A DNA stretch of 64,000 bases. It comes from Bdellovibrionales bacterium. Lineage in GTDB: Bacteria > Bdellovibrionota > Bdellovibrionia > Bdellovibrionales > JAUICD01. Made by a program: the position numbers. Positions 27,701 to 33,700 of the stretch are shown here, one piece after another. The stretch lies in the NCBI GenBank assembly GCA_965262715.1, contig OZ253553.1, positions 1,024,001-1,088,000 on the forward strand, in the 5' to 3' direction. Every line of letters starts with the position of its first letter. Position 1 is the first letter of the stretch.

Positions 27701-30700
27701 CTTTTATTGTAAGCCCCATTTCTATTCTTTTTTGCTTTAAAATTAATGCTAAAATAGGTCCGACATGATTAGGAATAATAAAAAAAGAAATACTATCAAT
27801 AGGCTCAATGTCTACTCTAAAACTAGAGTCAAAATCAACAACAACAAGTTCAATAGCTTCTTTGATCATCTCATAAGCTTCTTTTTTAGTTTTTCCCTGA
27901 GTAAAAACACCGACTTCTGGAAAAGAAATACCCCAATACCTTTCACCCTTTTCTTTGATAAGCTTGCCTTCAAATTTCATTTATTTTGTCCTTTTATTTT
28001 TTTTGCTTGATTAATAATTGCTTTAGCTGTTCCTTCTCGAATTTCTCTGTGTCTGGGAATTGGAATCCTATGACCTTCTTTACTCCATATTTCATGATTT
28101 CCTCCTTCTCTTTTAAATTCCCAGCCTAAGTTTTGAAGGAGCTTTTCTAGATGCTTTTTCTTCATATTTTAATATACACAATATTGTGTAATTATGTCAA
28201 ACAATATCTCTAAAAATAACAAACTTTTTTAATCTTCTTCATTTTCTATCCTTTATTAGGTGGATTCAAGTCGTAAGTGCAATTTCTTTTAAAGTTGTTT
28301 AAAGCGGGTTAGAGGAATACTCTAATCAATAGCTTTAAATAACGAAAGGAGTATTCCATGAGTTACACTCATCTAACCCAAGTTGAGAGATATCAGATTT
28401 CAGTTCTTTTGAGAAGTGGAAAATCAATAAGAGCAATTTCAAAGCAGTTAGGTCGAGATAAAAGCACCTTATATAGGGAAGTGAACCGTAAAAGGTTTTC
28501 GAGGCTATCGCCCTCAACAAGCCCATGAGAAGGCATTATATCGTCTGCAAAATTCTCATAGATATATAAAGATAACACAGAAAGTTATTGGTAAGATTGA
28601 AGGGTTTCTTGTTCGTGATTGGAATCCGGAACAGATTTGTGGTTATCTTCGTGAAAGATGTTTATTTGTAAGTCACGAGAGTATTTACCAGCATATTCTA
28701 AAGGATAAGAAAGTAGGAGGTTCTCTCTACAAATTTTTAAGATGTCAGAAAAAACAGAAGAAGCGATATGGTACAAGGAGATTTGATGATAGGAAAAAAT
28801 CACAAGGGAGCTTTAGTGACTCTTGTAGATAGATGCTCTAAGAAGACGAAGATCGTCAAAATAGGATCTAAGAGATCTGAAGCCATTTTTCATGCTATTT
28901 CTAAAGCTCTTAAAGGAGAGATTGTTCGTACAATGACTTTGGATAATGGTAAAGAGTTTTCATGTCATGAGAAGATCAGTGAATATACCGGTTGTAAAGT
29001 TTATTTTGCACATCCTTACAGTTCTTATGAGCGAGGTTTAAATGAGAACACAAATGGTTTAATCCGTCAGTATTTTCCAAAAAAGACAGATTTCAGAAAG
29101 ATCACTCAAAAGGATGTAAAAAGAGTTGAAGTTCTTTTAAACCATCGTCCTCGAAAGAGTTTAGGATTTCTAAGTCCTAAAATACAAAAGGAGTTGCACT
29201 TGCGATTTGAAGTTACGTCATAATAGATTGTTACCGAAGCTTGGTAATGTTATTTTGATTTTCGGATTGGTTGCCTGCTGCCTATGGAAGAAGCTTGCCA
29301 TAACCTATATAACTATATTATTGATCATTTTCAGATTAATTAAGATATTTTTATATAAGGCAAGGTAAATTCAAATAATAGACCCAGCATTTTTAAGACT
29401 AATTCTAGAAAAAGAACATTAAAACTTCATAAGAAGGCTACCATAAGTTAACCCTGCGCCAAATGTAGTCATTAAAACCATTTGCCCTCTTTGAATTTGA
29501 TTTTTTAAAACAGCCTCATCCAGCGCAATAGGTATACTACCTGCTGATGTATTTCCTGTTTTATCAATATTGGTAATGACTTTTTCCCTAGGGAAAGCTA
29601 GTTGTTTAGCAACAGATTCTATAATCCTGATATTAGCTTGGTGAGGAATAAACCAATGGATATCTAAAATAGAGAGATTTGCCTGCTTTAAAACTTTTAT
29701 ACAAGAGTCTGTCATGCTTCGTACAGCATTTTTAAAAATATCTCTGCCATGCATGCGTAAATGATGTTTTTCTTTTTCTAATACTTCGTGTGTGATAGGA
29801 AGGCGACTGCCTCCAGCAGGAAGAATGAGCAGTTGAGATAAATCACCATCCGATGCGACATGGTGATTGAGAATTTGAGAATCTTCTGATGATGCTCTTG
29901 AGAGAATAACTGCACCAGCCCCATCTCCAAATAAAATAGATGTCTGCCTGTCTTTGAAGTGAAGCATCCTAGATATCACATCTGCTCCAACAACTAAAAT
30001 ATTTCGATGAAGACCTGTTTTTATAAATTGGTCTGCTACAACCAGGGCATATAAAAATCCAGAGCATGCAGCTAAAAGATCAAATGCCATTACATGTCGT
30101 GTCTTTAGTCGAGATTGGAGCAAACAAGCTGTAGTCGGTAAAAAATGGTCAGGAGTGCTCGTAGCCACAAGAATAAGGTCAATATCAGTGGCAGACTTAT
30201 CAGCTGCCTTTAAAGCTTTAATAGAAGCTTCATATGCCATATCACTGGTGGCCTCATGATCTGCTACAATATGCCGTGATTTGATACCAGTACGCTCTGT
30301 AATCCATTCATCGGTTGTATCAATAAGTTTTTCTAAATCTTTATTTGTTAAAATTTTTTGAGGCAAATAAGAGCCAGTGCCAGAAATATAAGAGTTATAC
30401 AACATAAAAAATCAGTTTTGGCTTTGATCTTGTTCTTGCTTTTTCTTAGCTCTGGATACTTTAATCATTTCAGGGTAAAAGCGATCTTTATAAAAGCCAC
30501 AATTGCTGCAAAAATGATGCGGTTTGATGGCCATACCACAATTTTTACACGTGGCAAAGACCATGCCTTTGATGGCATCATGAGAACGTCTCATCCCTCT
30601 TTTAGATCTAGTGGTTTTACTGGTTGGTTCTGCCATAATATATCTATATCCTTTCTTGAGATGGTTCTTTTAACATAACTAATTTTTTAAGTACAGAAAA

Positions 30701-33700
30701 AGGACTCTTGCCCTTATTTTTTCTCGATCGACAAGAACACTTTTCATAGTTTAGATTATTTCCACAACTATGGCAAAGACCATGGCAGTCTTTTTGACAT
30801 AGAATTTGAAAATCTGTAGCTAAAACTAAAACTTCGTGTAAAAAATGACTTAAAGAAAATTTAAGACTCATTAAAGGAAAAACAGAAATATCAGAAGATA
30901 TACCAGAAAGCCTCAATGCATCCATAGCCCTACCTTTTAAATAAAGATCATGAAACTTTTCAGAAAAAGACTTTCTAAAATGGCTTAAACAAAAAGAGCA
31001 TTCTAGTTCTCGAGTACCTGTAATGCTCCCATAAAGTTCATAACCTTGATCAATTGGTATGATGTTTACCTCAGCCTCAAAAGGGTGGGATGTTAAAATA
31101 TCTTTAAGAGCCTTTGCCATCTTACGATCTGTTTGATTGACCCTTAATAAAAGGCCCTCTACCGGAATGTCACTAAGCTTTATAATCATAATATGTCCTA
31201 TTTAAACCATAAGGGTGTTTTTAGACATTTCTCATAGATATAATACTTCAGGACATTAAAATCAAGGGTTCTAACACATCATGTATATCTGCCAATTATT
31301 AATGAATTACAAGATGTTATCATCATCTAGCTTGTAATATAAAGACTATTTTCTTGAAAAAAAATGACCAATAATGGCCTCTTGAGCTTTGAAAAGTATA
31401 TCTATAGAATCACTTACGGCCTGTGTCATTGACATGAGATGTTCATGAGAAAAAGGTCTGCCTTCGGCAGTTCCTTGAATTTCTACAAATTGTTTAGAAC
31501 CTGTCATAACAATATTCATATCTGTTTCAATACTGCTGTCCTCTTCATAATTCAAGTCCAAAAGAACTTCATTTTTTGAGAGCCCTATACTTAAAGCTGC
31601 TAAGTAATCTTTTAATGGTAGAGATGATATTGTTTGATTTTCAACAAGAGACTGAAGAGCTAAAGCTAACGCGACAAATCCTCCCGTAATAGCAGCTGTT
31701 CTTGTACCACCATCTGCTTGAATAACATCACAGTCGACAATAACTTGACGTTCTCCTAATGCTTTCAAGTCTGTCACTGACCTTAAGCTTCGAGCAATCA
31801 ACCGAGAAATCTCTTTTGTTCGGCCTGAAGATGCTACACCCTCTCTTTTCATACGTGTGTGTGTAGAGCGAGGTAACATACCATACTCTGCTGTCACCCA
31901 ACCTCTATTATGACTCTCAGAAGATAGCCATTTGGGTAAAGAATTTTCTACAGACGCTGTGCATAAAATTTTTGTGTGCCCAAATGAAATCTCGACCCCA
32001 CCTTCTGCATAACGTGTAGGTTTAGGCTTTATTGTGACTTCTCTTAATTGTAAATTATCTCGATGATCGTTTCTATTTTTCATAAGCCTCTCTTAATTTT
32101 TCCTTTTGAGTGTAAGATATCACACAAGCAGAAACTTTAGAAATTGCATAAATAAAAAAGTTTACAAAATCTTATTTCATCTCTACAAATGTAAGAAGAT
32201 CTCTATCTATGGGAGTTAGTTTATAGTTAGATATATTTTTCCTTAATGCACGATATACTTTTGAATGAGCAATTAAAATCCAAGGAACCTCTTCCTTAAA
32301 AATGACTTGAGCTTCCTTGTACAATCGAATTCTTTCATCTATGTCATTTGACTGTTGAGCTTTTGTCACAAGATCATCAAAAGGCTTATGACACCAAAAG
32401 GAAGTATTTGATTGAGCTGTAACCGCTGCACAACTTAAAAGAGTGTAAAGAAAGTTATCTGGATCGCCATTATCTCCTGTCCATCCTGTTTGTGCTAGAG
32501 AGTGTTCCCCTTCAGCTACTTTGTTTATATAGGTAGGCCAATCGTAAGTCACTATGTTGGCTTGAATACCTACTCTTGCTAAATCAGCCTGCATCATCTC
32601 TCCTAATTTCTTACCAGAAGGAATATAAGGCCTTGCCACAGGTAGAGTCCATAGGTCTGTTTTAAACCCTTTAGGAAATCCTGCTTTTTTTAATAAGGCT
32701 TTAGCTTTTTCAATATTATAATCGTATTCCTTAATCTCATCATGATAGCCTAAAACTCCTGGAGGAATAGGATTTTTTGCAACCACTGCACTTCCTAAAT
32801 AAACAGCTTGAATATAAGCCTCTCTGTTAAAAGCATGATAAATAGCTTGACGTACTAATTTATTATCAAAGGGCTTTTTCTTTATATTTATTGCTAAATA
32901 ACCTATATTAAGTCCCGGTCCTTCTAAAAGGGTTAAATTGGTATCTCTTCTGATAGCTTCTAAGTCTGCTGGTGCAGGATATGCAATCAACTGACACTCA
33001 TTAGCCCTTAACTTTTGTAGACGCACATTAGCATCAGGTGTAATGGCAAAAATAAGTTTTTTAATATTACCTCTTTCCGAAAAATAATCCCCAAAAGCAT
33101 TAAGTCTGACAGCAGTATCTTTCTCATACTTCTCGAATACAAATGGGCCTGTCCCAATAGGCTCATGATCTATCTTGCTAGGTGTTTTTGCTTCTAATAG
33201 TTTGTCTCCATATTCTTTAGATAGAATAGCTGCAAAACCCATAGCCAAATTAGCCATAAAAGGAGCATTTGGTTTTGAAAGGATAAACTTAACTCTATGA
33301 TCATTGACTTTAACTATATCCTTAATAAGGGACTGCATATCCATAGCTTGAAAGTACTTATAAAGACCACCAATTTTATAATAAGGATGCTGAGGATCCC
33401 TTTGTCTATTGAAACTAAAGAGCACATCATCTGCATTAAACTCCCTGGTAGGAGTAAAATAAGGTGTAGTATGAAATTTCACACCTTTTCTAAGATCAAA
33501 TGTATATTCTAAACCCTTCTCGTCCACCTCCCATTTTTCTGCCAAACTTGAGATAACTTTTGTTGTACCATATTCAAAAGCAAAAAGACGATCATAAATA
33601 TGCTCAGTCACATTATGTGTAGAACCATCTGTTTCAAGTTGTGGGTTAAAACTACTAGGGCTACCTTCAGCACAAAAAACAAAAGTCCTGTCATTAACAG

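What a model noticed while it worked through the whole genome (the two positions that open the first line are those of the whole stretch)
29419..31189. No known enzyme for the first acylation of glycerol-3-phosphate (PlsX, PlsY, PlsB) nor GpsA
This closed genome has fatty-acid synthesis and the CdsA-PgsA-PgpA route but none of the known ways to make lyso-phosphatidic acid: no PlsX/PlsY, no PlsB and no GpsA; plsX is absent from its usual place between rpmF and fabH. Only two short PlsC-type acyltransferases remain. The gap is shared by the sampled order, so Bdellovibrionales must use a non-canonical enzyme or scavenged lysolipid or diacylglycerol.
Evidence so far: PlsY 0 of 41 and PlsX 0 of 41 order genomes, with controls ringing in 8 and 9 of 14. 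The PlsB C-terminal domain is in 1 of 41. The GpsA profile gives no match in G000 and only partial hits of E>=5.7e-6 elsewhere. The same PlsY search finds 16 of 41 phylum genomes, all outside the order, so the method detects the gene in kin. G000 has two acyltransferase domains, in proteins of 243 and 252 aa; G038 has one. Glycerol kinase, GlpD, four glycerophosphodiesterases and a Dgk1-like CTP-dependent kinase (g02037) are present. The tables show no Psd or cardiolipin synthase.
(Added by a program. Inside this text positions count along the whole contig: contig position 1,024,001 is position 1 of the stretch shown here. "Call 12" and the like, gene names such as g00115 and contig names such as C1 are that model's own, and its searches are not shown. 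The text may have been shortened before it was handed on; [...] marks where a part breaks off. The agent that wrote the report below was given it as the finding of a first reader that could run no searches.)

Follow-up and report, generated by a model that had tools for sequence, protein, structure and literature searches.

The report
Hidden first enzyme of phospholipid synthesis
Predatory Bdellovibrio-type bacteria lack every known enzyme for the first step of building membrane phospholipids, and comparative and published genetic data point to one small, mis-labelled acyltransferase as the likely stand-in, which a simple complementation test could confirm.

Summary
The gap is real. plsX is missing from its slot (6 bp between rpmF and fabH). 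PlsX and PlsY pass the cut-off in 0 of 151 order genomes; PlsB's C-terminal domain and GpsA in 0 of 46. One ('A', C1:524196-524927) is a classic PlsC. The other ('B', C1:239124-239915) belongs to a compact clade, single-copy in 145 of 151 order genomes and usually behind a second CdsA-like gene. Outside the order, one family shows an either-or pattern: 5 of 9 genomes carry the cassette (one cut by a contig end) and have empty plsX and plsY slots; 4 of 9 keep PlsY and lack it. In G134, B and cdsA were both deleted in place. In published B. bacteriovorus Tn-seq, B has no insertions in six samples from an axenically built library. Best reading: B does the first acylation, most likely of glycerol-3-phosphate (about 0.65). 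No activity was measured, and sequence and fold cannot separate first from second acylation. The HD100 gap was noted in a metabolic model; I found no paper assigning it to B, and no earlier scan note on this protein.

The parts
29419..30405 (-). fabH, 3-oxoacyl-ACP synthase III, 328 aa
   Evidence: ORF; Pfam ACP_syn_III and ACP_syn_III_C
30406..30411 (.). Empty plsX slot, 6 bp. The proposed replacement lies outside the window: acyltransferase B at contig C1:239124-239915 (-, locus L002) and classic PlsC A at C1:524196-524927 (-, locus L001); cdsA C1:1564343-1565134, pgsA C1:825935-826498, pgpA C1:547687-548136, glpK C1:1664455-1665933
   Evidence: Gap measured; plsX fills this slot in G253 and G304; other genes
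30412..30636 (-). rpmF, ribosomal protein L32, 74 aa
   Evidence: ORF; Pfam Ribosomal_L32p
30644..31189 (-). yceD (DUF177), 181 aa
   Evidence: ORF; Pfam YceD

Best explanation
Bdellovibrionales replaced PlsX/PlsY with a short PlsC-fold HX4D acyltransferase (clade B; in B. bacteriovorus HD100 most likely Bd2895, in 109J EP01_RS10390). B transfers an acyl chain, presumably from acyl-ACP, to glycerol-3-phosphate; classic PlsC (clade A) adds the second chain; CdsA, PgsA and PgpA give phosphatidylglycerol. G3P comes from glycerol kinase, glycerophosphodiesterases or uptake, not from GpsA. Shown: the absences, B's distribution, gene context, co-loss with cdsA, either-or pattern with PlsX/Y, fold, and the published insertion counts. 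Inferred: the reaction, acceptor, sn position and acyl donor. Where A is missing (G035, G138), B may do both acylations.
For: B is single-copy in 145 of 151 order genomes (E 1e-92 to 1e-128). The 6 misses are 3 assemblies of 430-670 contigs and 3 small genomes that also lack CdsA over the cut-off (G128, G134, G146); G128 and G146 lack FabH and every PF01553 protein too. In G134, cdsA (uppS-rseP) and B (serA-like to antiporter gene) are each gone from slots filled in genus-mates G138 and G148, while fabH/D/Z and the OlsB/OlsA-like pair stay. Three single-contig genomes (G000, G019, G008) keep exactly A plus B. Family f30, 9 genomes: B in 4, PlsY in 4, both in 0; the ninth (G308) has the cassette's first gene cut at a contig end. 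All 5 cassette genomes have empty plsX and plsY slots, G302 with a 20-aa plsX remnant. Their B forms one clade nested among order sequences. Tn-seq of axenic 109J (PMC6561027, Data Sets S2 and S3): RS10390, identified as B by gene order, has 0 sites in 6 samples while both neighbours have mutants; clades C and D have mutants, A has no fitness data. Against the PDB the A profile matches PlsC over its full length (1e-36) and not GPAT1; the B profile matches PlsC partly (5e-18) and human GPAT1 weakly (5e-5). B lacks A's strongly hydrophobic N-terminal helix. Precedent: mycobacterial PlsM, a PlsC-type protein, acylates G3P and LPA (PMC10593935, abstract and passages).
Against: No activity was measured. 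Profile-profile scores to PlsB are no higher for B (53-62) than for its sister groups (52-55) or the LplT-fused domains (44-52), and the HxSHxD form of the motif also occurs in clade A. The model is closest to PlsC (Z 18.1, rmsd 3.2, 196 aligned), then to plastid GPAT (16.2), tafazzin (16.0) and GPAT1 (15.7). G035 has only B and G138 only B plus an OlsA-like protein, which a strict B=first, A=second split does not explain. The f30 pattern rests on one acquisition of B, and B came with the CdsA-like gene, so the cassette may be the unit; I did not check that these genomes keep a classic PlsC or what else they gained. Tn-seq limits: the zero-insertion list includes flagellar genes, pheS and fabH have fitness values, and A is not in Data Set S3 while its two downstream neighbours also lack data. 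Glycerol kinase mutants are fit (W 1.1) although GpsA is absent, so the G3P supply is unexplained. The model iCH457 assigns G3PAT to Bd0438 or Bd1667 at confidence 2; I could not identify these genes. A genome-wide search for other co-lost genes was not completed.
Confidence: 0.65

Rival explanations
1. B does the first acylation but on dihydroxyacetone phosphate, as eukaryotic GNPAT does; a reductase then gives LPA, so no GpsA is needed.
For: GpsA in 0 of 46 order genomes; glycerol kinase mutants are fit; B's sister group includes acyl-CoA synthetase-carrier-acyltransferase fusions with the domain order described for myxobacterial ElbD, whose acyltransferase activity was not detected in vitro (PMC9131029, passages).
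Against: PlsY-bearing f30 genomes also lack GpsA (0 of 6), so G3P is evidently available without it; GlpK, a GlpD-like gene and glycerophosphodiesterases are present in G000; no reductase sits beside B in the loci read.
Confidence: 0.1
2. B is the housekeeping second-step enzyme (LPA acyltransferase) and an unrelated, unrecognised protein makes LPA.
For: B is the only acyltransferase kept in every order genome with CdsA that was checked; A is missing from G035 and G138; B's closest solved fold is PlsC; the model names other genes for G3PAT.
Against: Gaining a second-step enzyme would not free f30 genomes from plsX and plsY unless a third gene came too; B is non-redundant although A, a full-length PlsC match, is present in 109J; B scores 57.6 against a TIGR00530 cut-off of 102.95, A 96.6.
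Confidence: 0.13
3. Salvage: prey lysolipids, mono- or diacylglycerol are phosphorylated by a Dgk1-like kinase and re-acylated by B and A; there is no de novo first step.
For: Predatory life; LplT-acyltransferase fusions in many order genomes; a Dgk1-like gene in G000 and G145; some order members (G128, G146) seem to have dropped phospholipid synthesis altogether.
Against: 109J grows without prey in peptone-yeast medium, with B, fabD, fabG and acpP free of insertions; G000 has no LplT fusion; the kinase label is unconfirmed.
Confidence: 0.08
4. B serves another lipid (lipid A secondary acylation, ornithine lipid, or a special lipid made with the second CdsA-like protein) and its pattern is coincidental.
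For: B sits behind the CdsA-like gene in 77 of 80 loci, overlapping it in one more; sister acyltransferases lie in ynbA/ynbB-like clusters in genomes that also have PlsB.
Against: G000 keeps B without lpxA, lpxB, lpxK, lpxL or olsB; G134 keeps olsB and OlsA-like but lost B; B stays where the CdsA-like gene is gone (G000, G019, G028, G138, G148); mutants of either cdsA gene were recovered, of B none.
Confidence: 0.04

Closest known systems
PlsM of mycobacteria (Rv2182c, MSMEG_4248; PMC10593935)
   Same: Short PlsC-type HX4D protein, essential, in genomes without PlsX/PlsY; acylates G3P (shown for PlsM, inferred for B).
   Different: PlsM works beside PlsB2 and uses acyl-CoA at sn-2; here no PlsB exists. 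Orthology to PlsM was not tested.
PlsC of Thermotoga maritima (PDB 5KYM)
   Same: Fold (Z 18.1), HX4D and FPEGTRS motifs; clade A matches it over its full length.
   Different: B matches only the core, has a conserved W-x-Y...W..LP..HLPL leader and a weaker N-terminal hydrophobic helix, and scores far below the TIGR00530 cut-off.
PlsB and mitochondrial GPAT1 (PDB 8E4Y)
   Same: Same catalytic superfamily; weak profile hit (5e-5); proposed same reaction.
   Different: B is about 250 aa, has no GPAT_C domain and does not group with PlsB in the tree.
Acyltransferases of ynbA/ynbB-like clusters and of acyl-CoA synthetase-carrier-acyltransferase fusions (ElbD-like; the ynb label is recalled)
   Same: Sister groups of B (SH-aLRT 98); shared AAxDY motif; linkage to a CdsA-like gene.
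   Different: Accessory, function untested, found beside PlsB or PlsY; the B loci read lack the CDP-alcohol phosphatidyltransferase gene.
Gap-filled G3P acyltransferase of model iCH457 (PMC7529429)
   Same: Notes that the step had to be added for HD100; PlsX and PlsY reactions have no gene.
   Different: Lists Bd2895 as an LPA acyltransferase and gives G3PAT to Bd0438 or Bd1667.

Membership tests
PlsX/PlsY route (genome) | PF02504 and PF02660 proteins | tested here: not met
PlsB (protein B) | GPAT_C domain behind the acyltransferase domain, 580-900 aa | tested here: not met
   B is 252-263 aa with PF01553 only; GPAT_C 0 of 46 order genomes
Glycerolipid acyltransferase superfamily (protein B) | HX4D and FPEGxR motifs, PlsC/GPAT fold | tested here: met
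   Invariant H90, D95, F167-R172 in 114 rows; fold
PlsC / TIGR00530 (protein B) | Score over the curated cut-off | tested here: not met
   57.6 against 102.95
PlsC / TIGR00530 (protein B) | Strongly hydrophobic N-terminal anchor helix (feature recalled) | tested here: inconclusive
   Best 19-residue hydropathy 1.0-1.95 in 9 B proteins against 1.94-2.82 in 9 A proteins; one long helix precedes the core in the model
PlsC / TIGR00530 (protein A) | Score over the curated cut-off; full-length match to PlsC | tested here: inconclusive
   96.6 against 102.95; clade profile matches 5KYM over residues 8-241
G3P acyltransferase (EC 2.3.1.15 or 2.3.1.198), PlsM-like | Acylates G3P in vitro or rescues plsB | not testable with these tools
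   Indirect evidence only
G3P acyltransferase, PlsM-like | Orthology to Rv2182c | not tested
   No PlsM sequence was fetched
Plastid-type GPAT | GPAT_N domain PF14829 | tested here: inconclusive
   0 of 201 over cut-off, but 0 of 14 controls
OlsA lyso-ornithine lipid acyltransferase (protein B) | OlsA profile match and co-occurrence with OlsB | tested here: not met
   Clade C, not B, matches OlsA best and lies beside olsB in G145; G000 has B without olsB, G134 olsB without B
LpxL-type lipid A acyltransferase (protein B) | LpxL profile match and lipid A pathway in the genome | tested here: not met
   No LpxL match for B; lpxA/B/K/L not found in G000
ynbA/ynbB-type cluster | CdsA-like gene next to the acyltransferase | tested here: met
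   77 of 80 loci; not in G000 itself
ynbA/ynbB-type cluster | CDP-alcohol phosphatidyltransferase gene in the same cluster | tested here: not met
   Not seen in the B loci read; present in sister loci L090, L095, L096

The most novel reading that the evidence does not exclude
B founds a further bacterial entry into phospholipid synthesis that needs neither PlsX/Y, PlsB nor GpsA: one 250-aa enzyme acylates DHAP or G3P and can add both chains itself (G035 has no other PlsC-family gene), and it moves as a two-gene cassette that lets recipients shed plsX and plsY. Relatives could fill the same gap in other lineages.
Probability: 0.2. Interest if true: 0.88.

Novelty: new variant of a known kind. 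Interest (0 to 1): 0.72.

Why it matters
The first acylation is the committed step of membrane synthesis, and the two bacterial solutions in the reviews read (PlsX/PlsY, PlsB) are both missing from an entire order that includes the model predator B. bacteriovorus. A named, apparently essential gene turns an orphan reaction into a one-plasmid test. If right, many genes labelled '1-acyl-G3P acyltransferase' do a different job, and the same approach could close similar gaps elsewhere (Actinotignum, PMC5720513; the control genomes Bacteroides and Corynebacterium).

Tried and rejected
Clade D (beside glpK in G145, G078) as the enzyme: absent from G000, mutants recovered in 109J. Clade C: OlsA-like, absent from G000, mutants recovered. 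LplT fusions and synthetase-carrier-acyltransferase fusions: not in G000; the latter occur in f30 genomes with and without PlsY. A lenient local profile search found no third acyltransferase in G000 (next hit E 0.048). Telling first from second acylation by sequence or fold: not possible; the clade D row of the matrix was invalid (empty alignment) and was dropped; both trees are quick trees without bootstrap. Plastid-type GPAT: no positive control. Subtraction of whole genomes (G138 against G134) was left incomplete: 1.21 of 1.55 Mb and 0.40 of 1.33 Mb were read. Identifying Bd0438 and Bd1667: 13 G145 genes near the estimated place of Bd0438 showed no acyltransferase family; not resolved. Paper searches for ynbB clusters and for B's locus tags gave nothing relevant. 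The ESM Atlas gave only PF01553 clusters.
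Full report
Observation. The window holds yceD, rpmF and fabH in a row on the minus strand, with 6 bp between rpmF and fabH. In two phylum relatives plsX fills exactly this slot. G000 is one contig of 2.94 Mb, 92.7% complete; closure was not shown. It gives no PlsY match, and profiles built from kin for PlsY, PlsX, GpsA and PlsB find nothing below E 0.2 in all six frames. 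In 151 order genomes at least 90% complete, PlsY and PlsX pass the cut-off in 0 (controls 8 of 14 each). In a phylum sample of 201, PlsY rings in 61, GpsA in 135 and GPAT_C in 85, none of them among the 46 order genomes. Families f21 (46 of 46) and f16 (9 of 10) lack PlsY but have PlsB; f14, f15, f24 and part of f23 lack PlsY, GPAT_C and the protein described below, so other gaps remain.

What is left. PF01553 proteins occur in 149 of 151 order genomes, mostly 4 to 6 each. They fall into clades: A, classic PlsC; C, OlsA-like and beside olsB; D, beside glycerol kinase; LplT fusions; and B. G000 has only A and B. A profile of 9 B proteins finds exactly one strong match in 145 of 151 order genomes. 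Three misses are assemblies of 430 to 670 contigs. The other three are small genomes without CdsA; two of these also lack FabH and all PF01553 proteins. In G134, of which 78% was read, cdsA and B are each missing from slots that they fill in genus-mates G138 and G148, while fatty-acid genes and the ornithine-lipid pair remain. B is therefore tied to glycerophospholipid synthesis. It is not tied to lipid A: G000 keeps B while lpxA, lpxB, lpxK and lpxL were not found.

The partner gene. B follows a divergent CdsA-like gene in 77 of 80 named loci, overlaps it in one more, and lacks it in two, one of them at a contig edge. That gene is in 141 of 151 order genomes but absent from G000, G019, G028, G138 and G148, which keep B. 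B is the more constant partner. In a quick tree B is sister to acyltransferases of ynbA/ynbB-like clusters and of synthetase-carrier-acyltransferase fusions. Among 1.84 billion representatives only 4 score above 250 bits, so B is a compact family.

A natural experiment. Outside the order, strong B matches occur in 3 of 155 sampled phylum genomes, all in family f30. Of all 9 f30 genomes, 4 have B, 4 have PlsY, none has both, and the ninth has the cassette's first gene cut at a contig end. In the 5 cassette genomes rpmF lies next to fabH and the plsY slot is empty; G302 keeps a 20-residue plsX remnant. The 4 PlsY genomes lack the CdsA-like partner; PlsX was searched in two of them and found in both. 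The four f30 B proteins form one clade inside the order's diversity, which suggests one transfer. A weak two-gene host tree splits the cassette genomes into two groups around a PlsY genome of the same genus, so the losses may be repeated, but they count as one or two events, not five. All 6 f30 genomes tested lack GpsA, so GpsA loss does not by itself call for a new chemistry.

Published genetics. In Duncan et al. 2019 (PMC6561027; passages, all of Data Set S3, searched rows of S2), a host-independent 109J library of 90,000 insertions was built without prey. EP01_RS10390 has 0 sites in all 6 samples. Its neighbours (sigma-54 regulator, phosphatidate cytidylyltransferase, MBL hydrolase) match the order around B in named B. 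bacteriovorus loci, so it is B; both flanking genes have mutants, which argues against a polar effect. By gene order, C (RS13475) and D (RS09585) have mutants, and A (RS05215) has no fitness data but is not in S3. Either cdsA gene has mutants of lowered fitness, as expected for overlapping function. Limits: S3 includes flagellar genes, and pheS has a fitness value. Glycerol kinase mutants are fit.

Sequence and fold. B has intact catalytic motifs and the PlsC/GPAT fold (pLDDT 80.5). Unlike A, its profile matches PlsC only in the core and touches human GPAT1 weakly, and its N-terminus is less hydrophobic. Profile comparisons do not place it nearer PlsB than its sister groups. This neither proves nor excludes first-step activity.

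Mechanism. Two acylations are needed, no known first-step enzyme exists, axenic cells must make phosphatidic acid, and B is the one acyltransferase that is universal, non-redundant, co-lost with cdsA and exchanged for plsX and plsY. I put B as G3P acyltransferase at 0.65, B acting on DHAP at 0.10, an unknown enzyme at 0.13, salvage at 0.08, another lipid at 0.04. G035 (B only) and G138 (B plus OlsA-like) suggest that B can also do the second step, as PlsM does. Acceptor, donor and position are inferred.

What is known. Herencias et al. 2020 (PMC7529429; passages and searched rows of Table S5) added the step for HD100 on physiological grounds, left the PlsX and PlsY reactions without genes, listed Bd2895 as LPA acyltransferase next to Bd2894 as CDP-DAG synthase, and gave G3PAT to Bd0438 or Bd1667. 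That Bd2895 is B is inferred from this adjacency; the HD100 link of CAE80673.1 rests on my recall of the accession series. Li et al. 2021 (PMC8067016; passages) found PlsB only in Oligoflexia. PMC10593935 (abstract, passages) describes PlsM and names only archaea, eukaryotes, Xanthomonadales and mycobacteria as lacking PlsX/Y. PMC5720513 (passages) reports the same gap in Actinotignum. PMC11633183 (passages) had nothing on this order. Searches showed no paper that assigns the step to B; the library holds open-licence papers only, and the lipid analyses of Nguyen 2008 and Muller 2011 were seen only as references. No bioRxiv supplement was needed. Earlier scan notes gave one loosely related case and nothing on this protein.

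Verdict. A real, order-wide gap, partly noted before for one strain, now with a specific and testable candidate: a new variant of a known enzyme kind. Interest 0.72.

Noticed in passing
G000 C1:2932156-2934601 (L239:6157-8602), outside the window: A serine palmitoyltransferase-like gene (best NCBIfam hit, below cut-off) follows a GNAT-like gene that resembles bacterial ceramide synthase (recalled). lpxA, lpxB, lpxK, lpxL, two heptosyltransferase-like genes, pssA and olsB were not found in G000. The genome may build its envelope from phosphatidylglycerol and sphingolipid without LPS.
   Followed up: partly
G128, G146 (whole genomes), G134 (L287-L346, L247): Small order members without CdsA; G128 and G146 also lack FabH and any PlsC-family gene. 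G134 keeps fatty-acid genes and OlsB/OlsA-like genes only, and no lpx gene was found in the 78% read: a possible ornithine-lipid membrane or lipid theft from hosts.
   Followed up: partly
Phylum families f14, f15, f20, f24, f26, f27, f31, f32, f34 and 10 of 19 f23 genomes: No PlsY, no GPAT_C and no clade B: further unexplained first steps. G301 (f14) also lacks GpsA and has a synthetase-carrier-acyltransferase fusion (L093).
   Followed up: no
G000 C1:2198524-2198863: Four near-evenly spaced tRNA-like calls with a four-base anticodon loop between tRNA-Thr and tRNA-Trp.
   Followed up: no
window 32172-37448: Three tandem, similar dipeptide ABC binding-protein genes (562, 564, 571 aa).
   Followed up: no
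window 22792-29223: A cluster of insertion-sequence transposase genes and small toxin-antitoxin-like pairs next to fabH (labels by eye).
   Followed up: no
G145 L059 and L064: Two more CdsA-like genes, each beside CDP-alcohol phosphatidyltransferase-like genes, so this genome has four CdsA-family genes.
   Followed up: no
G000 C1:239124-240679 and G035 L037: In genus g1, B has moved next to the type III pantothenate kinase gene and its CdsA-like partner is detached (G035) or gone (G000).
   Followed up: yes
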